IMG/VR virus record: IMGVR_UViG_3300027628_000007
DNA length: 64,000 bases
DNA from: a virus
Taxonomy: Duplodnaviria; Heunggongvirae; Uroviricota; Caudoviricetes
Direction: 5' to 3' (one strand)
In this document: positions 38,887-46,517 of the stretch, one piece after another
Layout of the letters: the number at the start of each line of letters is the position of its first letter
Numbering within the stretch: position 1 is the stretch's first letter
Translations under genes and position numbers: made by a program
Notes under the pieces: model-generated
The model's input: the letters and a program-made list of their open reading frames with translations, nothing else
Databases searched by the model: none
Told to the model about the DNA's origin: nothing

Positions 38887-40104
38887 ATGAAATACATCAT
38901 TGATACGAATGTATTACTTAGAAATCCAGAAATTGTAAAAGAGTATGATGCAGTAATTCCTTCTCATGTATTAAGAGAAATCGAAGACCTAGAGTTAAAA
39001 AGAAAAAGCGATAGAACATTGCAGTTTGAGATTCGCAGATTAAAGAAATTCTTAGATGCGAATGACCATATTTACGTTGACAAAAGAGATTACAAGTTTA
39101 CACTTGATGATGAATTAGATGGTCAATATGTGGACAACATCTTATTACAGGTAGCTGTAGACAACGGTTGGGGTATCGTTACTGGTGACCGTTTAATGAA
39201 GCTGAAATGCAGAGATTACAATATTCCTTTCGTAAATCTAGAAGAAGACCATTTCGTGGAGCACAAAGGATTCAAAGAAGAAGAGCTTTCAGAGACAGAG
39301 TGGATTAATATGATGGACACACCATTTATAAACTACTTTGAGTTAATGATTAATGAATACGCTATCATTAACAATGTAAAAGATGGAGAGCTGTTAGACA
39401 TCGTTAAATGGGATGGAAAAGAGACAAAATCATTACGAGATGCAAATGGCAATCTAGGTGCTAAATTCTCAACTTTACAATTTGGTGAGTTTAAGCCGTT
39501 TGATGAACAACAAATCATGGCAATTGATAGTATTAGAAGTAATCAGTTAACATCTATTCGTGGGCGTGCAGGTAGTGGTAAATCACTAATCACGTTAAAC
39601 ACTGCTTGGAGACTAGTTGAGGAAGAAGGATACAAGCTAGTAATGTTTGTTAACCCAACACCTCTTCGTGAAGCACAAGAGCTTGGATTCTACAAGGGTG
39701 ACCGTAAAGAGAAGTTAATGCAATCAGCAGTAGGTACAATGCTTAAATCTAAATTCGGTAGCGAAGAAGAAATTGAAAAGCAAATCATCTATGAGCGTTT
39801 AGAAATCCTTCCATTCGTAGATTTACGTGGTTGGGACTCTGGTGATAATAAAACTATCGTATGGATTCTAGAAGCACAGAATTTAACGGCAGACCTTATG
39901 AAACTTGGTCTACAACGTATCACAGAGAATACTAAAGTAGTAGTAGATGGAGATTTCCATGCACAGGTCGATAAAGACTCTTACGCTTCTAACAACGGTA
40001 TGAAACGTATGTCAGAGGTGTTTAGAGGGGATGTACTATATGGTGAAGTTGAATTACAAACTGTACACCGTAGCCGTTTAGCAGACCTTGCAGACAAAAT
40101 GTAA
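38887..40104 (+). CDS. phoH: PIN-PhoH fusion (PhoH2-like RNase/ATPase)
   Basis: IIDTNVLL PIN motif; GRAGSGKS, EAQN, VDGD PhoH motifs. Confidence 0.92.
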   Translation: MKYIIDTNVLLRNPEIVKEYDAVIPSHVLREIEDLELKRKSDRTLQFEIRRLKKFLDANDHIYVDKRDYKFTLDDELDGQYVDNILLQVAVDNGWGIVTGDRLMKLKCRDYNIPFVNLEEDHFVEHKGFKEEELSETEWINMMDTPFINYFELMINEYAIINNVKDGELLDIVKWDGKETKSLRDANGNLGAKFSTLQFGEFKPFDEQQIMAIDSIRSNQLTSIRGRAGSGKSLITLNTAWRLVEEEGYKLVMFVNPTPLREAQELGFYKGDRKEKLMQSAVGTMLKSKFGSEEEIEKQIIYERLEILPFVDLRGWDSGDNKTIVWILEAQNLTADLMKLGLQRITENTKVVVDGDFHAQVDKDSYASNNGMKRMSEVFRGDVLYGEVELQTVHRSRLADLADKM

Positions 40105-40723: not shown

Positions 40724-40765
40724 GTAACACATTCAGTTGACAAAAGCAAATAGTAATGATATAAT
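40724..40765 (+). promoter_or_regulatory. Class B promoter driving the tRNA/ncRNA array
   Basis: GTAACACA-N5-TTGACA-17-TATAAT, extended -10. Confidence 0.9.
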
Positions 40766-41288: not shown

Positions 41289-41357
41289 TCTAACCAAAGT
41301 TTCACACTTTGGAAACTAGATATTAATTTCTTAATACTAATATTAGTATCTAGTTTC

Positions 41358-41483: not shown

Positions 41484-41556
41484 TGCGGTGAGGACAAATG
41501 GTTAAGTTGCTTGGCTCATAACCAAGAGATAGAGGGTTCGACTCCCTCCACCGTAA
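41484..41556 (+). tRNA. trnM: tRNA-Met/Ile2 (CAT)
   Basis: Cloverleaf; loop CTCATAA; paired 1:72, so not an initiator. Confidence 0.88.
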
Positions 41557-41560
41557 TTTA

Positions 41561-41678
41561 AAGACACTAACAGCTACTACTTACAGAGCAAAACCTTCTA
41601 TCGTTGGTTCGAATCCAACCGTAGGCTTGATGCCTACGTGGACAAGTGGTTAAGTCAAAGGTCAATTAAAGTGTCTTG
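41561..41678 (+). ncRNA. ACAGC-stem RNA Y2 with circularly permuted tRNA module (YrlA-like topology)
   Basis: T arm, closed acceptor hairpin, D arm, ACCTT/AAGGT stem inside AAGACAC/GTGTCTT. Confidence 0.85.
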
Positions 41679-41683
41679 ATTAT

Positions 41684-41764
41684 GCGTGGGTGATGGAACT
41701 GGTAGACATGTGGGACTTAAAATCCCATGCCTAGTGCGTGAGGGTTCGAATCCCTCCCTACGTA
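41684..41764 (+). tRNA. trnL: tRNA-Leu (TAA)
   Basis: Cloverleaf with long variable arm. Confidence 0.9.
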
Positions 41765-41780
41765 TCAACTTTTTACCATA

Positions 41781-41854
41781 GGGGCTGTGGTGAAGGGGTT
41801 TAACACGCTAGTCTGCAAAACTAGTATCCGCCAGTTCAAATCTGGTCAGTCCCT
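41781..41854 (+). tRNA. trnC: tRNA-Cys (GCA)
   Basis: Cloverleaf; U73. Confidence 0.9.
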
Positions 41855-41869
41855 CTCAATTATTATTAC

Positions 41870-41943
41870 GCTCTGTTGGACAAATCGGTCAAGTCGCTAC
41901 CCTTTCAAGGTAGAGAATGCGAGTTCGAATCTCGTACAGAGTA
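41870..41943 (+). tRNA. trnE: tRNA-Glu (TTC)
   Basis: Cloverleaf; loop CTTTCAA. Confidence 0.92.
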
Positions 41944-41947
41944 TACA

Positions 41948-42066
41948 AAGACACATACAGCAACTACATTAAATACACTTTCAGAACAAGTAAGGTCTAG
42001 GTTCGAATCCTAGCGTGGCGTGACTAAGCCATGTGGTGTAATGGGAGCATTAAATAATGTGTCTTG
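41948..42066 (+). ncRNA. ACAGCAA-stem RNA Y3 with permuted T/acceptor/D module
   Basis: CTAGG-TTCGAAT-CCTAG, CGTGGC/GCCATG, GTGT-AATGGGA-GCAT inside AAGACAC/GTGTCTT. Confidence 0.85.
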
Positions 42067-42094
42067 CAGAGAGTCTAGTCAACTCTCACCACAT

Positions 42095-42175: not shown

Positions 42176-42259
42176 GTTGGTGCGGTAACGTTGGAGTGTT
42201 ACGGTGGGCTGTAACCCCATTGGCATTTGCCTTAGTAGGTTCGAATCCTATCACCTTCA
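42176..42259 (+). tRNA. trnY: tRNA-Tyr (GTA), two acceptor mismatches
   Basis: Long variable arm; T.T at 2:71 and 3:70. Confidence 0.75.
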
Positions 42260-42349: not shown

Positions 42350-42473
42350 AAGGCATGTACAGCAATTAAAAAATTCGGTCAGCCATTATTTGACTAGTAG
42401 CTCAACTGGTTAGAGCATCCGATTGATAATCGGAAGGTTGTTGGTTCGAGTCCAACCTTAATTGTGTGCCTTG
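42350..42473 (+). ncRNA. ACAGCAA-stem RNA Y4 enclosing an acceptor-less tRNA-Ile(GAT) body
   Basis: Intact D, anticodon and T arms nested in AAGGCAT/GTGCCTT and CAATTAA/TTAATTG. Confidence 0.85.
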
Positions 42474-43116: not shown

Positions 43117-43158
43117 GTAACACACTTGCTTGACAAAAGCAAAAGATAATAGTATAAT
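43117..43158 (+). promoter_or_regulatory. Class B promoter of Y6-Y7-TROVE
   Basis: GTAACACA-N5-TTGACA-17-TATAAT. Confidence 0.9.
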
Positions 43159-43451: not shown

Positions 43452-44933
43452 ATGTTAAATCATTTGCAAAACGAGTTTAACAAATCAAAAACAGCGAATG
43501 GGGCATTTGCTTATAAGAGCACAAAGTCAGATGTACTTGACTTGTTTTCTACTGGTGGTGCATTCCGTAATCGCAGTGACGAAGATGTAAAGGTTTTAGT
43601 TTCTAAAGCTTATGGTGAAAATCCAGAATTAGCTATGAAAACCTTATTCTATCTTCGTGATATTACAGAGGGTCAAGGTGAAAGACGTTTCTTCCGAGTT
43701 GCTATGCAACATTTAGCTCTTCATCACAAAGAGTCATTAAAGAAGAATTTAGCGTTAGTGCCTGCATTTGGTCGATGGGATGACTTATGGGTGTTGCTAG
43801 ACACAGACTTAAAGGCAGACGTATTAGCTTTAGTTAAACGTCAATTAAATGCTGATAAGAAAGCAGAACATCCAAGCTTACTAGCTAAGTGGATGCCATC
43901 TGAAAATGCTTCTAGTTACAAGACTAAGAAGTATGCAAAAATCATGCGTGAGCATTTTGGTGTAAAACCAAAGCAATACCGTAAGACATTATCTGCTTTA
44001 AGAGCGAAGTTGAACTTAGTTGAGACTAAGCTTACAGATAAGCGTTATGGAGAAATTCAATATGATAAACTGCCATCACGTGCAGGATTAATTTATCGTG
44101 GAGCATTCTTCCGTAATGATGAAGACCGTTACAAAGACTTTTTGGACAGCTTGACTAAAGGTGAAGTTAAGATTAATGCTAAAACATTATATCCATACGA
44201 CATCGTTAGCAAATGTTTCCAAGGTTTTAGAGGTCAAAACATCTGGGGTGGATTTGGGAAAGAACTAACAAGAGAAGAAATTCAATTGTTAGATGCACAA
44301 TGGAAAGCGTTGCCAGACTTCATTGATGGTGCGAGTGAAAACTCTATCGCTGTCGTGGACACATCTGGTAGCATGACTGGAAATCCAATGAACGTTGCAG
44401 TGTCTTTAGGTATCTACCTAGCTGAACGTAACAAAGGAGTATTCCATAATCACTTCTTAACTTTCAACAGCAGACCAGACCTTAAAAAAGTCGTAGGTGG
44501 CAATATTGTTGAAAAGGCACGTAACTTGTCTGATTCAAGTTGGGGTGGCTCAACTAACATTGAAGCCGTATTCCAAAAAATCTTGGACACAGCAGTTAAA
44601 AACAACGTACCTAAAGAAGAAATGATTGCCAAAGTGTACATCATCTCTGACATGCAGTTTAACCAATGTACGCAAGGTGCTGATACACACATCTTCAAGC
44701 ATATGGCAGAGAAATTCGAAGCTAAAGGTTACGAATTGCCAAACTTAGTATTCTGGAATGTGAACGCATTCGTGAGTAACACACAGTTTACTATGAATGA
44801 GCAAGGAGTGCAATTAGTATCTGGATTGTCACCATCCATCTTCAAGCAATTGTTAGATGCGAATGGCAAGACTGCATATGAGTTGATGTTAGATGTAATT
44901 GAGTCTGATAGATACAAAGAGGTAACAGCGTAA
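43452..44933 (+). CDS. TROVE/Ro60-like (DUF2828-type) protein with C-terminal vWA domain
   Basis: T.NGA.A..ST, LFYLRD..GQGERR, GRWDDL, LAKW.PSE helical region; DTSGSM MIDAS and ISDMQFN. Confidence 0.85.
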   Translation: MLNHLQNEFNKSKTANGAFAYKSTKSDVLDLFSTGGAFRNRSDEDVKVLVSKAYGENPELAMKTLFYLRDITEGQGERRFFRVAMQHLALHHKESLKKNLALVPAFGRWDDLWVLLDTDLKADVLALVKRQLNADKKAEHPSLLAKWMPSENASSYKTKKYAKIMREHFGVKPKQYRKTLSALRAKLNLVETKLTDKRYGEIQYDKLPSRAGLIYRGAFFRNDEDRYKDFLDSLTKGEVKINAKTLYPYDIVSKCFQGFRGQNIWGGFGKELTREEIQLLDAQWKALPDFIDGASENSIAVVDTSGSMTGNPMNVAVSLGIYLAERNKGVFHNHFLTFNSRPDLKKVVGGNIVEKARNLSDSSWGGSTNIEAVFQKILDTAVKNNVPKEEMIAKVYIISDMQFNQCTQGADTHIFKHMAEKFEAKGYELPNLVFWNVNAFVSNTQFTMNEQGVQLVSGLSPSIFKQLLDANGKTAYELMLDVIESDRYKEVTA

Positions 44934-45258: not shown

Positions 45259-45275
45259 GAGTAAGGGTGATTACA

Positions 45276-46517
45276 ATGAGGTCATATACTAACAAGAGCG
45301 GTGAACTTATCAAGGTAAGTGAAGAGCATTTAAATACTGCTGTTAGAATTAAGAAAGAACTACAGAACGCATCACCATCAAGAAAGTGCTCATGGTCACT
45401 TCTAGTTAAGATGATGGAGCGTGAGGGCTACTTTGATGCAGATAACAATGAATCATATAGATGCATGATTAAAGCCTTCCAGAAGAGCGTAGGAGAGCTT
45501 CCAGAAGCTCCTAAATATGCTAACATGGTAGCCGACTCAAAGCTTGAATCAATCAAGGAACTGGTTGGAGAAGTGGCGTATGAGAAGCGTGAGAATCAAC
45601 ATGTACTACGAGAGCTTAATAAAGTTAAACGAGATGTGATTGATTTCGCTATCACAGCAGAACAAATTGGCAATGCATTAAAAGAACATGATTTCACTGC
45701 ATTAAAATTTGAAGCACAACCTATCAATATTATTGGCAAGTCTAAGATGGTAGTTAGTTTATCTGATTTACATATCGGTGCAGTTGTTGATAATAAAGTA
45801 AATACATATGATTATGATATTGCGATTAAAAGAATGCAGAAATATTTAAACAAGATTGTAGCAGAGATAAAAGCTAACAACATTTCAGAAGTATATGTTA
45901 TGAATCTTGGAGATACAGTAGAACATTCTTCTATGAGATTTGCACAAGGTTATAAAGTAGAGTTTTCATATTCAGAACAGATTGTAAGAGCATCTGATTT
46001 AATTCAAAAATTCTTAATCGGTCTTGCGGAATATGCAGAAGTAAAATACGCAGGCATAGCAGGAAATCACGATAGAGTAGATGGAGATAAGAATAAAGGT
46101 ATTGATGGTGACCATGCGGTTAAAGCTATCAATTATACAATCAAGCAATTTATCGAAAATGCTAGAATCGAAAGAATCACATATGAACAAGCAGAAGATT
46201 ACAAACATTCGTTTGTAGTAGGTGGTAAGAATATTTTAGCATTACATGGTGATTTAGACAACCAGAACAATCCTAATCTATTAGCAAACCATTCTAAGAA
46301 TGACGGTATTGATTATGACTTAGTATTAATGGGTCACACTCATACACGATTCTTAAAAGAAGTACATGATAATAAATTCATTTCAGTAAGTGGAAGCTTG
46401 AAGGGTGCAGATGATTTCGTATTGAATAAATTACGCAAAGTTTCATCGCCATCACAGAGCTATCACATCATTAGAGAAGATGGAGAAATCGAAGTAAGAT
46501 GGGTAACATTCTTCTAG
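45276..46517 (+). CDS. Calcineurin-like metallophosphoesterase (YonJ-like)
   Basis: SDLH, GD, GNHD, HGD, GHTH motifs. Confidence 0.9.
   Translation: MRSYTNKSGELIKVSEEHLNTAVRIKKELQNASPSRKCSWSLLVKMMEREGYFDADNNESYRCMIKAFQKSVGELPEAPKYANMVADSKLESIKELVGEVAYEKRENQHVLRELNKVKRDVIDFAITAEQIGNALKEHDFTALKFEAQPINIIGKSKMVVSLSDLHIGAVVDNKVNTYDYDIAIKRMQKYLNKIVAEIKANNISEVYVMNLGDTVEHSSMRFAQGYKVEFSYSEQIVRASDLIQKFLIGLAEYAEVKYAGIAGNHDRVDGDKNKGIDGDHAVKAINYTIKQFIENARIERITYEQAEDYKHSFVVGGKNILALHGDLDNQNNPNLLANHSKNDGIDYDLVLMGHTHTRFLKEVHDNKFISVSGSLKGADDFVLNKLRKVSSPSQSYHIIREDGEIEVRWVTFF

What the first reader, a model, noticed from the sequence alone, without database searches (positions are those of the whole stretch)
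41561..42066. Y2 and Y3 are circularly permuted tRNA mimics
Seen in Y2: ACCTT-V-T arm (GTTGG TTCGAAT CCAAC)-acceptor closed by a loop (CGTAGGC TTGAT GCCTACG)-TG-D arm-A-AAGGT. This is a full cloverleaf opened at the anticodon loop, where the ACAGC handle is attached. GCA-AA before the stem and U at 73 hint at tRNA-Cys ancestry. Y3 (41948-42066) has the same T-acceptor-D order but no clear anticodon stem. Known: this is YrlA topology, and permuted tRNA genes exist in algae and archaea. Inference: elbow mimics that cannot be charged; alternatively permuted precursors.
Basis: partly seen in the sequence, partly recalled or inferred. Interest (0 to 1): 0.85.

Follow-up and report, generated by a model that had tools for sequence, protein, structure and literature searches.

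The report
Permuted tRNA-like Y RNAs in phage
Two spacers in a Bacillus phage tRNA operon are conserved small RNAs shaped like a tRNA opened at the anticodon loop and joined to a shared docking stem, most likely partners of the phage's Ro60-like ring protein, a pairing found widely but not yet catalogued.

Summary
Y2 (41561-41677) is a complete cloverleaf opened at the anticodon loop. Y3 (41948-42065) has the T arm, a closed acceptor-like hairpin and the D arm, but no conserved anticodon stem.

All stems covary across 41 homologues from phages and six bacterial phyla: 95% of cells are paired and 25 of 28 pairs show compensatory change. The tRNA 15:48 tertiary pair also covaries.

Both RNAs carry the bulged handle (stem plus ACAGCWA). 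They lie 1.4-1.9 kb upstream of, and on the same strand as, a DUF2828 protein whose model has the Ro60 fold (Z 16.9).

A model built from Y2 finds hits only on that strand next to DUF2828 genes: 279 in phage loci and 54 in bacterial loci.

The topology is that of YrlA, but membership fails. Rfam YrlA scores 17-18 bits against a 69-bit cut-off, the GNCGAA motif is absent, and the protein is not a Pfam TROVE member.

New here:
- Y3's acceptor loop is complementary to the loop of a conserved hairpin just 3' of it (42069-42087), in four covarying sequence classes.
- In phage arrays these RNAs start 1-4 nt after a tRNA.

The reading as a functional permuted tRNA precursor is unlikely. tRNA-Cys ancestry is unproven.

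This scan has noted the same protein-RNA pairing before on other DNA (374 notes, at least 284 genomes). I found no paper or Rfam family for it.

The parts
41561..41568 (+). Y2 handle, 5' strand (AAGACACT)
   Evidence: Pairs with 41670-41677. The handle stem covaries across relatives (AAGACAC/GTGTCTT, AAGACGC/GCGTCTT, AAAGCAC/GTGCTTT and others) (helix 1 is 96.5% paired, 6 of 7 pairs compensatory).
41570..41576 (+). Y2 conserved bulge motif ACAGCTA
   Evidence: Of 172 distinct modules, 142 have ACAGCAA, 14 ACAGCTA and 9 ACAGCGA directly 3' of the 5' handle strand.
41593..41597 (+). Y2 anticodon-stem strand, tRNA positions 39-43 (ACCTT)
   Evidence: Pairs with AAGGT at 41658-41662. Orthologues have GCTTT/AAAGC, ACTTT/AAAGT, AGTCC/GGACT, GGTTT/AAACC and ATCTT/AAGAT.
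41598..41602 (+). Y2 variable loop CTATC; C48 is the Levitt partner of G15
   Evidence: Positions 15 and 48 covary G:C <-> A:U in 27 of 29 parsed homologues.
41603..41619 (+). Y2 T arm (GTTGG TTCGAAT CCAAC)
   Evidence: Recovered by the minimum-free-energy fold. Helix 3 is 99.5% paired and 4 of 5 pairs are compensatory.
41620..41638 (+). Y2 acceptor stem closed by the loop TTGAT (7 bp)
   Evidence: Recovered by the minimum-free-energy fold. Helix 4 has 7 of 7 pairs with changes on both sides.
41639..41657 (+). Y2 U8-G9, D arm (GACA AGTGGTTA AGTC) and A26
   Evidence: Helix 5 is 94.5% paired. A14 is kept in 28 of 29 parsed homologues, and every parse has a GG in the D loop, which the parser required.
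41658..41662 (+). Y2 anticodon-stem strand, tRNA positions 27-31 (AAGGT)
   Evidence: Same evidence as for 41593-41597.
41670..41678 (+). Y2 handle, 3' strand plus the conserved G
   Evidence: G follows the 3' handle strand in most modules. tRNA-Leu begins 3 nt after the match, which ends at 41679.
41948..41963 (+). Y3 handle 5' strand (AAGACACAT) and ACAGCAA motif
   Evidence: Present in all 13 relatives that were fetched.
41964..41996 (+). Y3 A/C-rich linker with no conserved anticodon stem
   Evidence: The anticodon helix is gapped for Y3-type rows. Only 2-4 of 5 candidate pairs form in nearly all Y3-type parses.
41997..42013 (+). Y3 T arm (CTAGG TTCGAAT CCTAG)
   Evidence: Centroid fold. 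Compensatory variants include GAGAG/CTCTC, GTGAG/CTCAC and GTGGG/CCCAC.
42014..42033 (+). Y3 closed acceptor-like hairpin (6 bp, loop GTGACTAA)
   Evidence: The stem covaries. The loop holds TGACTA (42021-42026), which is complementary to the loop of the downstream hairpin.
42034..42050 (+). Y3 U8-G9 and D arm (GTGT AATGGGA GCAT)
   Evidence: Nearly invariant among Y3 orthologues. A15 pairs with T48 at 41996.
42057..42066 (+). Y3 handle 3' strand plus G
42069..42087 (+). Conserved hairpin 3' of Y3. Its loop TAGTCA (42076-42081) can pair with the Y3 acceptor loop.
   Evidence: The stem covaries (GAGAGT/ACTCTC, GAGAGG/CCTCTC, GAGAGA/TCTCTC, GAGGG/CCCTC, AGGGAG/CTCCCT). Loop-loop complementarity is kept in four sequence classes: TGACTA/TAGTCA, (T)GACC/GGTC(A), GTGATG/CATCAC and CTAGG/CCTAG.
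41484..41556 (+). tRNA-Met, ending 3 nt before the Y2 model match (41560)
41870..41943 (+). tRNA-Glu, ending 3 nt before the Y3 model match (41947)
   Evidence: The same 1-4 nt spacing is seen in all 26 model matches that follow a tRNA directly, the two here included.
43452..44933 (+). Gene for the DUF2828/DUF7788 protein (493 aa), which has the Ro60 fold and is the presumed protein partner
   Evidence: Pfam. AF2 model with pLDDT 80. The top 13 Foldseek hits are all Ro60/TROVE. VIA Z 16.9 to 1yvr over 406 residues. MIDAS D303/S305/S307 are invariant.

Best explanation
Y2 and Y3 are genuine small non-coding RNAs of the Y-RNA type. Each has two modules.

The first module is a 'handle': a 7-9 bp helix joining the 5' and 3' ends, with the single-stranded motif ACAGCWA directly after its 5' strand. 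All seven modules of this locus share it. Inference: this is the docking site for the phage's Ro60-fold ring protein (DUF2828, 43452-44933).

The second module is a tRNA-like domain in circularly permuted order. In Y2 it is anticodon-stem strand, variable loop, T arm, acceptor stem closed by a loop, D arm, anticodon-stem strand. In Y3 it is the same without the anticodon stem, and its acceptor loop additionally pairs with the loop of a hairpin just 3' of the handle.

The D and T loops keep the nucleotides that build the tRNA elbow, so the domain should fold into the L-shaped body of a tRNA. It has no anticodon loop and no free CCA end, so as encoded it cannot decode or be charged.

Inference: both RNAs are transcribed as part of the tRNA operon and released by the enzymes that trim the flanking tRNAs. 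They begin 3-4 nt after a tRNA 3' end, and Y2 ends a few nt before the next tRNA.

Inference, by analogy with Rsr-YrlA and Rsr-Yrn1-PNPase: the RNA tethers the ring protein to a factor that recognises the tRNA body, or presents a tRNA-shaped bait to it. Candidates are RNase P, RNase Z, the CCA-adding enzyme, T-loop modifying enzymes, PNPase, or a host tRNA-directed nuclease.

Shown here: the structure, its conservation, its restriction to this gene's neighbourhood and strand, and the protein's fold. Not shown: binding, RNA ends, modifications and the effector.
For: Structure:
- The sequence read-out matches the cloverleaf.
- Re-permuted Y2 is called a tRNA by ARAGORN.
- Model R1 scores Y2 at 111.7 bits and Y3 at 52.3 bits.
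- Pair counts are 93.1% and 95.0% of cells paired, 23 and 25 of 28 pairs with changes on both sides, and 178 and 315 compensatory cells. None of 500 shuffles reach these values, and slid controls pair 36-45%.
- The 15:48 pair covaries in 27 of 29 parsed sequences.

Association with the protein:
- R1 gives 279 hits at E<=1 in the window plus 79 phage loci chosen only for a DUF2828 homologue. All are on the gene's strand.
- R1 gives 54 hits at E<=0.01 in 80 bacterial loci, all on the gene's strand and mostly less than 500 nt upstream. These include Chloroflexi, Synergistaceae, Muribaculaceae, Lachnospiraceae, Succinivibrionaceae and Akkermansia.
- In the whole 139.8-kb phage record, the only R1 hits are Y2, Y3, Y5 and Y7.
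- Phage Kirov lacks the gene and keeps only one handle module.
- No other protein neighbour is conserved in the bacterial loci.

Protein fold:
- The top 13 Foldseek hits are all Ro60/TROVE, E 6e-8 to 6e-5.
- VIA Z is 16.9, with 406 residues aligned; the next fold class (vWA only) scores Z 10.7.
- The MIDAS motif is invariant.
- PHROG 850 is annotated 'RNA-binding protein'.

Release by tRNA processing:
- All 26 model matches that follow a tRNA directly, Y2 and Y3 included, start 1-4 nt after its 3' end.

Precedent:
- YrlA has the same order of arms and lies within 4 kb of rsr on the same strand (PMC4201824).
- A phage Ro60 binds phage Y-like RNAs and host PNPase (PMC12135203).
Against: - There is no direct evidence of expression, RNA ends, protein binding or modification.
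- The pair counts use alignments fitted to the model's structure.
- The phage loci are related to each other, so cells are not independent events. The bacterial set partly answers this.
- The protein's Ro60 likeness rests on a predicted model (pLDDT 80). It has no sequence-level match to TROVE.
- The handle does not resemble the known Ro60-binding helix of YrlA (no GNCGAA), so binding is an analogy.
- In bacterial loci the RNAs sit in the gene's 5' region, so a cis-regulatory role there is not excluded.
- The Y3 loop-loop pairing rests on only four sequence classes. In the Tsamsa group it is 4 bp, which shuffled loops reach 17-18% of the time.
Confidence: 0.75

Rival explanations
1. Permuted tRNA genes. 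The transcript would be circularised or re-ligated at the handle and then opened in the acceptor loop to give a functional, chargeable tRNA, as in the permuted tRNA genes of Cyanidioschyzon.
For: Re-permuted Y2 is a perfect cloverleaf with a 7-bp acceptor stem. Chen et al. 2014 report that M. smegmatis YrlA, which has a 7-bp acceptor stem, is cut by RNase P and receives CCA (PMC4201824), so opening of the Y2 loop is conceivable. Y2 occupies the slot where Tsamsa-like phages carry tRNA-Phe, and this phage has no tRNA-Phe.
Against: - About 25 + 7 nt plus a conserved helix and the ACAGCWA motif stand where a 7-nt anticodon loop is needed. The same handle occurs on modules with no tRNA part at all.
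- No consistent anticodon remnant exists among orthologues, and isoacceptor likeness is inconsistent.
- Y3 has no anticodon stem.
- Bacterial homologues close the acceptor with short loops (GAAA, GTAA, TTT) and lie next to DUF2828, not in tRNA arrays.
- ARAGORN finds no tRNA when Y2 is read as a circle.
Confidence: 0.03
2. Decaying leftovers of tandem tRNA duplication: the 3' half of one copy plus the 5' half of the next, with no present function and removed as spacer.
For: A tandem duplication followed by loss of the outer halves is the simplest origin of a permuted tRNA, and the elements lie in a tRNA array. tRNA finders ignore them, and records leave them unannotated.
Against: Decay would not preserve 28 base pairs through compensatory changes across phages and six bacterial phyla. 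It would not keep the 15:48 covariation, and it would not keep the elements on the DUF2828 strand in genomes without nearby tRNAs.
Confidence: 0.03
3. Structured RNAs that act on their own, independently of the DUF2828 protein. They could be processing or landing platforms for RNase P/Z within the tRNA operon, or free tRNA-shaped decoys for host tRNA-targeting nucleases.
For: The tight 1-4 nt abutment to upstream tRNAs. The complete tRNA body with elbow nucleotides. Other modules of the locus display other tRNA parts.
Against: The same RNAs occur next to DUF2828 in bacterial genomes with no tRNA array. The shared handle is only explained by a common binding partner. The one relative lacking the gene has lost nearly all modules.
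Confidence: 0.1
4. Cis-regulatory leader elements of the DUF2828 mRNA, giving autoregulation or tRNA sensing, rather than trans-acting RNAs.
For: In bacterial loci the RNAs lie within a few hundred nt upstream of the start codon on the same strand. In the window, Y6 and Y7 follow a consensus promoter and precede the gene.
Against: Nine tRNA genes, a tRNA-like module (Y4) and a second consensus promoter at 43130-43158 separate Y2 and Y3 from the gene. They would be cut away from any mRNA by tRNA processing.
Confidence: 0.05

Closest known systems
YrlA, the tRNA-like bacterial and mycobacteriophage Y RNA bound by Rsr/Ro60 (Rfam RF02553; Chen et al. 2014, PMC4201824; structure preprint 10.1101/312249)
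   Same: - The order is variable region - T arm - closed acceptor-like stem - D arm, held in a helix that joins the RNA ends.
- The tRNA elbow nucleotides are kept and the Levitt pair covaries.
- It is encoded within 4 kb of, and on the same strand as, a Ro60-fold gene.
- It is the best-scoring Rfam family for both stretches.
   Different: - Scores are 17.0 and 18.5 bits against a 69-bit cut-off.
- The handle motif is ACAGCWA instead of GNCGAAN0-1G.
- The partner protein belongs to DUF2828/DUF7788, not to Pfam TROVE.
- Y2 keeps a full 5-bp anticodon stem and a 7-bp acceptor stem.
- The RNAs are embedded in a phage tRNA operon, directly abutting tRNAs.
- Y3 has an extra loop-loop contact with a 3' hairpin.
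Thermus phage phiLo Ro60 with Yrl1/Yrl2 (PMC12135203; PDB 9KOP, 9L5Y)
   Same: It is a phage-encoded Ro60-fold protein with Y-like RNAs encoded upstream of its gene. 9KOP is the top Foldseek hit of the model here.
   Different: According to the paper, the phiLo RNAs are stem-bulge-stem RNAs with a CGAA motif, and no tRNA-like domain is described. Sequence identity to the protein here is 17-18%.
Circularly permuted tRNA genes of red and green algae and some archaea
   Same: The 3' half precedes the 5' half, and the acceptor strands are joined by a short linker.
   Different: Those genes yield functional tRNAs after circularisation at a splicing-type motif. Here the junction is a conserved protein-type handle, the anticodon loop is lost, and Y3 lacks the anticodon stem.
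Class I RNAs of dictyostelid amoebae (PMC7919456)
   Same: A short stem joins the 5' and 3' ends, a conserved 11-nt single-stranded motif lies directly after the 5' strand, and the rest is variable (as described in the paper). From memory, that motif ends in ACAGCAA. Earlier notes of this scan make the same point.
   Different: I did not test this here. The paper's text does not spell out the motif, and no amoeba sequence was at hand. Class I RNAs are 42-65 nt with no tRNA-like domain, and their known partner is an RRM protein.

Membership tests
YrlA (Rfam RF02553) | Score at or above the family's gathering threshold (69 bits) | tested here: not met
   No hit at gathering threshold in the window or in 13 related loci. 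Searched alone, Y2 scores 17.0 bits (E 0.21) and Y3 18.5 bits (E 0.094).
YrlA (Rfam RF02553) | Order V - T arm - closed acceptor-like stem - D arm inside a helix joining the ends | tested here: met
   Seen in the sequence, supported by covariation, and aligned by cmscan to model positions 23-85.
YrlA (Rfam RF02553) | tRNA tertiary-contact nucleotides with a covarying 15:48 pair | tested here: met
   U8 and A14 are kept in nearly all parses (T8 in 26 and A14 in 28 of 29) and G53:C61 in all. The parser itself required a GG in the D loop and a TTC/TTA-type T loop. The 15:48 pair is G:C or A:U in 27 of 29 parsed homologues.
YrlA (Rfam RF02553) | GNCGAAN0-1G motif on the 5' strand of the Ro60-binding helix (PMC4201824) | tested here: not met
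   The handle reads AAGACAC-NN-ACAGCWA. ACAGCAA, ACAGCTA or ACAGCGA occurs in 165 of 172 distinct modules.
YrlA (Rfam RF02553) | Encoded within 4 kb of, and on the same strand as, the Ro60 gene | tested here: met
   Y2 lies 1.8 kb and Y3 1.4 kb upstream of 43452-44933 on the same strand. All 279 + 54 model hits are on the gene's strand. The gene has the Ro60 fold but is not a Pfam TROVE member.
YrlA (Rfam RF02553) | Bound by Ro60 in vivo, and modified by TruB/DusA | not testable with these tools
   This needs immunoprecipitation and modification mapping.
Ro60 / TROVE proteins (partner gene 43452-44933) | HEAT-repeat ring followed by a vWA domain with a MIDAS motif | tested here: met
   AF2 model with pLDDT 80. 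The top 13 Foldseek hits are Ro60 over the full length. VIA Z 16.9, rmsd 4.2, 406 residues aligned. DxSxS is invariant.
Ro60 / TROVE proteins (partner gene 43452-44933) | Match to Pfam TROVE (PF05731) | tested here: not met
   Pfam gives DUF2828 + DUF7788 only. PF05731 finds nothing in the 139.8-kb record, while the control genomes are positive. A profile search of PDB sequences finds no Ro60.
tRNA (RF00005) / functional permuted tRNA gene | Complete cloverleaf after re-permutation | tested here: met
   Met for Y2: ARAGORN calls a tRNA with any of four anticodons inserted. Not met for Y3, which has no conserved anticodon stem.
tRNA (RF00005) / functional permuted tRNA gene | A recoverable 7-nt anticodon loop and a free or releasable CCA end | tested here: not met
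   The anticodon loop is replaced by 25 + 7 unpaired nt plus the handle. The acceptor is closed by 3-11 nt loops. ARAGORN finds nothing in the linear or circular reading. The tRNA model matches only the T arm, at 14 bits.
Dictyostelid Class I RNAs | Short terminal stem plus a conserved 11-nt motif after its 5' strand | not tested
   The architecture as described in PMC7919456 matches the handle. The identity of the motif is recalled from memory only. A search for the recalled motif's letters in the paper library found nothing.

The most novel reading that the evidence does not exclude
DUF2828 proteins and these handle RNAs would form a second, widespread Ro60/Y-RNA-like particle of bacteria and phages that has escaped description. 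In large Bacillus phages, its RNAs would be cut out of the tRNA operon by RNase P/Z and would display tRNA bodies (Y2, Y3) to capture or distract a host factor that reads the tRNA elbow. That factor could be a tRNA-directed defence nuclease or a tRNA-processing enzyme, making the particle a phage tool for protecting or policing its own tRNA supply.
Probability: 0.2. Interest if true: 0.85.

Novelty: new variant of a known kind. Interest (0 to 1): 0.62.

Why it matters
tRNA-like Y RNAs have so far been tied to canonical Ro60 (TROVE) genes, and what their tRNA-like domain binds is still unknown. Here the same design recurs with a different docking motif and a protein family still filed as 'domain of unknown function'. 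It is found in cultured Bacillus phages (Thrax1, PBC2, Tsamsa group) and in gut and soil bacteria of several phyla.

This gives three things:
- a likely function for DUF2828;
- an explanation for 'empty' spacers and pseudo-tRNA calls in phage tRNA arrays;
- an experimentally easy system, with lytic phages of laboratory Bacillus strains, for asking what a tRNA-shaped arm on a Ro-type particle is for.

The covarying loop-loop contact in Y3 is a concrete structural prediction that can be tested.

Tried and rejected
- **Expression.** Fifteen soil metatranscriptome runs hold parts of the stretch. I laid four of them. Contigs of close relatives (up to 2.5 kb) run through Y2, Y3 and the flanking tRNAs. 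Contigs show no ends or strand, and DNA carry-over in RNA libraries is not excluded, so this gives no verdict on transcription or processing.
- **Isoacceptor ancestry.** Global alignment of re-permuted Y2 orthologues against 512 phage tRNAs gave different best matches (Arg/Cys/Phe; Thr; Arg; Cys; His). No general ancestry can be named. I dropped the tRNA-Phe idea, which was suggested by Y2's syntenic slot and a TGAAAA remnant in PBC2.
- **Conserved protein neighbours in bacterial loci.** I found only unrelated genes: subtilase, RapZ, radical SAM, adenylosuccinate synthetase. No RtcB-type repair partner emerged.
- **MAFFT alignments of Y3** misaligned the T arm between subgroups, so I used model-guided alignments instead.
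- **A conserved anticodon stem for Y3.** Only short AU-rich pairings appear (for example AAACA/TGTTT in some orthologues and TTTAAA/TTTAAA in Thrax1), and none is consistent.
- **Literature.** Searches for DUF2828 (5 papers, none on RNA), for Y RNA with Bacillus phage, and for the recalled Class I motif found no description of this pairing.
- **Profile search of PDB sequences** with the protein family found only a weak vWA match.
Full report
**Setting.** The window is part of a 139.8-kb virus record. It is related at about 80% DNA identity to large Bacillus siphophages of the Tsamsa/Thrax/PBC2 groups. Between 40863 and 43037 lie 19 tRNA genes, all on the + strand. The finding concerns two of the gaps in this array: 41557-41682, between tRNA-Met and tRNA-Leu, and 41944-42093, between tRNA-Glu and tRNA-Ile.

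**The observation.** Read directly, Y2 consists of:
- a closing helix, AAGACACT (41561-41568) with AGTGTCTT (41670-41677);
- the motif ACAGCTA (41570-41576);
- a complete tRNA body in permuted order: ACCTT (41593-97), CTATC, T arm (41603-19), CGTAGGC-TTGAT-GCCTACG (41620-38), TG, D arm (41641-56), A, AAGGT (41658-62).

The minimum-free-energy fold recovers the handle, T arm and acceptor hairpin (z -2.9). When I joined the two halves through any 7-nt loop, ARAGORN called a tRNA with each of four anticodons. It finds nothing in the native sequence, linear or circular.

Y3 has the same handle (41948-56 / 42057-65, ACAGCAA at 41957-63), a T arm (41997-42013), a closed 6-bp hairpin (42014-33), TG and a D arm (42036-50).

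**Is it more than chance?** All 13 cultured relatives that I fetched keep a Y3 in the same slot, after tRNA-Glu. Thrax1, Thrax3 and PBC2 also keep a Y2. The raw sequences already show stems replaced wholesale:
- T stems GTTGG/CCAAC, GCAAG/CTTGC, GGAGG/CCTTC;
- acceptor stems CGTAGGC/GCCTACG, CATCTGC/GCAGATG, CATCGGA/TCCGATG;
- anticodon stems ACCTT/AAGGT, GCTTT/AAAGC, ACTTT/AAAGT.

I built a covariance model (R1) from eight Y2-type sequences with the structure written by hand. It scores Y2 at 111.7 bits and Y3 at 52.3 bits.

On the 34 best phage matches, 93.1% of cells form standard pairs and 23 of 28 pairs have changes on both sides, with 178 compensatory cells. None of 500 shuffles reach any measure, and sliding the partner by 1-3 columns gives 36-45% pairing. 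Adding bacterial homologues (41 sequences) gives 95.0%, 25 of 28 pairs and 315 cells. These alignments are fitted to the model, which favours the structure. The margin over the slid controls and the raw sequences make the conclusion safe.

The anticodon helix is gapped in about half of the rows. Those are the Y3-type sequences.

**Tertiary fold.** An explicit parse of each homologue shows U8 and A14 in nearly all, G53:C61 in all, and a GG in the D loop and a TTCGA-type T loop, both of which the parser required. Nucleotide 15 and the last variable-loop nucleotide (48) are G:C or A:U in 27 of 29 parsed sequences. Y2 has G15:C48 and Y3 has A15:U48. Chen et al. 2014 used the same covariation to argue that YrlA folds like tRNA (PMC4201824).

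The 23-29 nt between Y3 and the next tRNA form a small hairpin (42069-42087). Its stem covaries among relatives. Its loop (TAGTCA, 42076-81) is the exact complement of TGACTA in the Y3 acceptor loop (42021-26). The complementarity is kept in four different sequence classes:
- TGACTA/TAGTCA;
- (T)GACC/GGTC(A) in the Tsamsa/Nate group;
- GTGATG/CATCAC in L028;
- CTAGG/CCTAG in L035.

Shuffled loops reach the 6-bp matches in at most 14 of 2000 trials. The 4-bp Tsamsa-group match is weak by itself, at about 17%. I read this as a probable loop-loop (kissing) contact. It would explain why Y3's acceptor loop is long and conserved, and it extends Y3 to about 42087. The independent events are few, so this is moderately supported.

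**The partner protein.** The ORF at 43452-44933 matches Pfam DUF2828 and DUF7788 and not TROVE. PF05731 finds nothing in the whole record, while control genomes are positive. An AlphaFold model from 29 homologues (pLDDT 80) has all of its 13 best Foldseek hits in Ro60/TROVE structures, over the full length (E 6e-8 to 6e-5). VIA-align gives Z 16.9 to Xenopus Ro60 (406 residues, rmsd 4.2), with ten Ro60 entries ahead of the first vWA-only match at Z 10.7. The MIDAS residues D303, S305 and S307 are invariant. PHROGs calls the family 'RNA-binding protein'. So the protein has the Ro60 fold but belongs to a sequence family that is not annotated as such.

**Association of RNA and protein.**
- I fetched 80 viral and 80 bacterial loci solely because they encode a DUF2828 homologue, at 38-99% identity.
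- R1 found 279 matches (E<=1) in the window plus 79 of the cultured-phage and viral loci, and 54 (E<=0.01) in the bacterial set. Every one is on the strand of the gene.
- In bacteria most lie within 500 nt upstream of the start codon. These include genomes of Chloroflexi, Synergistaceae, Muribaculaceae, Lachnospiraceae, Succinivibrionaceae and Akkermansia, and they have no tRNA gene nearby.
- In the whole phage record the model hits only Y2, Y3, Y5 and Y7.
- Phage Kirov, which lacks the gene, keeps one handle module and five tRNAs.
- Other neighbours of the gene in bacteria are unrelated to one another.

The conserved unit is therefore RNA(s) plus this protein, as for rsr and yrlA.

**How it probably works.** Shown: two conserved RNA structures with a shared handle and a tRNA-like body, confined to the neighbourhood and strand of a Ro60-fold gene.

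Inferred:
- The handle (helix plus ACAGCWA; 165 of 172 distinct modules carry ACAGCAA, ACAGCTA or ACAGCGA) is the protein's docking site.
- The RNAs are released from the operon transcript by tRNA processing. All 26 model matches that follow a tRNA directly, Y2 and Y3 included, start 1-4 nt after its 3' end, and Y2 ends a few nt before the next tRNA.
- The tRNA-like body tethers or baits a factor that reads the tRNA elbow. This follows the way Yrn1 tethers Rsr to PNPase, and the way a Thermus phage Ro60 with its Y-like RNAs binds host PNPase (PMC12135203).

Y2's 7-bp acceptor stem stacked on the T arm is the kind of substrate that RNase P cut in M. smegmatis YrlA (PMC4201824). Cleavage in the TTGAT loop is therefore a testable possibility. 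As encoded, neither RNA can be charged.

**Comparison with the known.** The closest family is YrlA. The order of arms, the elbow nucleotides, the Levitt covariation, and the position and strand relative to a Ro60-type gene are all the same. YrlA is the best Rfam family for each stretch when it is searched alone, aligning over the T/acceptor/D core.

Membership fails on three tested features:
- scores of 17.0 and 18.5 bits against a 69-bit cut-off;
- no GNCGAAN0-1G motif;
- a partner outside Pfam TROVE.

Chen et al. searched only genomes annotated with a TROVE protein, which would explain why these RNAs were not found. I found no paper linking DUF2828 to RNA.

The handle's architecture matches the published description of dictyostelid Class I RNAs (PMC7919456). 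I recall their motif as ending in ACAGCAA but could not verify that here.

**Rivals.**
- Functional permuted tRNA genes are unlikely. The handle occupies the anticodon loop, Y3 lacks the anticodon stem, there is no consistent anticodon remnant, and bacterial homologues close the acceptor with short loops.
- Decaying duplication remnants are excluded as a present state by the covariation, although tandem duplication is a plausible origin.
- An RNA acting without the protein, or a cis-acting leader, cannot be fully excluded. Both fit the distribution less well.
- The tRNA-Cys hint is not general.

**Expression.** Contigs from four soil metatranscriptome libraries, from close relatives, run through Y2, Y3 and their flanking tRNAs. 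This cannot separate RNA from carried-over DNA and shows no ends, so I give it no weight.

**Verdict.** Y2 and Y3 are circularly permuted tRNA mimics of YrlA topology. They belong to an RNA family that is absent from Rfam 15 and is paired with a Ro60-fold DUF2828 protein. This is a new variant of a known kind. Earlier notes of this scan report the same pairing on other DNA (374 notes in at least 284 genomes), including Felix O1-type phages and an Akkermansia-type bacterium. My tests here are independent of them and agree.

Noticed in passing
window 42350-42472 (Y4); L010 4515-4577; L136 2839-2899: A handle module holds a tRNA-Ile(GAT)-like D arm, anticodon arm and T arm in normal order but with no acceptor stem (Rfam tRNA positions 6-65). 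The same acceptor-less match recurs in PBC2 and next to a DUF2828 gene in a Leptolinea MAG, so this second way of grafting a tRNA onto the handle is also conserved.
   Followed up: partly
window 41557-41682 compared with L002 3159-3235, L004 4568-4645: Y2 sits where Tsamsa-like phages carry tRNA-Phe (Met-Phe-Cys against Met-Y2-Leu-Cys). Among the records whose tRNA lists I read, those with Y2 have no tRNA-Phe. PBC2's Y2 keeps TGAAAA just before the anticodon-stem strand. Alignment scores did not single out Phe.
   Followed up: partly
L011 (Bacillus phage Kirov) 4859-4915: Kirov lacks the DUF2828 gene, has only five tRNAs, and keeps a single short handle module. The YonK and metallophosphatase genes follow the array directly.
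   Followed up: no
window 42179-42255: An unannotated tRNA-like stretch lies between tRNA-Ile and tRNA-Leu. Rfam tRNA-Sec scores it at 25.1 bits, below threshold, and ARAGORN does not call it. It may be a degenerate tRNA.
   Followed up: no
window 41297-41351: A near-perfect long inverted repeat (GGAAACTAGATA...TATCTAGTTTCC) lies between tRNA-Gln and tRNA-His. Thrax1 has an HNH endonuclease gene at this position (L001 3043-3612), and one RNA-library contig skips exactly these 53 nt.
   Followed up: no
window 40737-40765 and 43130-43158: Two perfect TTGACA-17-TATAAT promoters (12 of 12 matches) stand just upstream of handle modules Y1 and Y6, inside near-identical ~30-nt boxes. A third box at 40596-40624 matches 11 of 12.
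   Followed up: no
window 38887-40104 and 45267-46517: The array and the DUF2828 gene are flanked in all relatives by a PIN-PhoH (PhoH2-type RNA helicase/nuclease) gene upstream, and by YonK-like and metallophosphatase ('exonuclease', PHROG 284) genes downstream. This synteny is not seen in the bacterial loci.
   Followed up: partly
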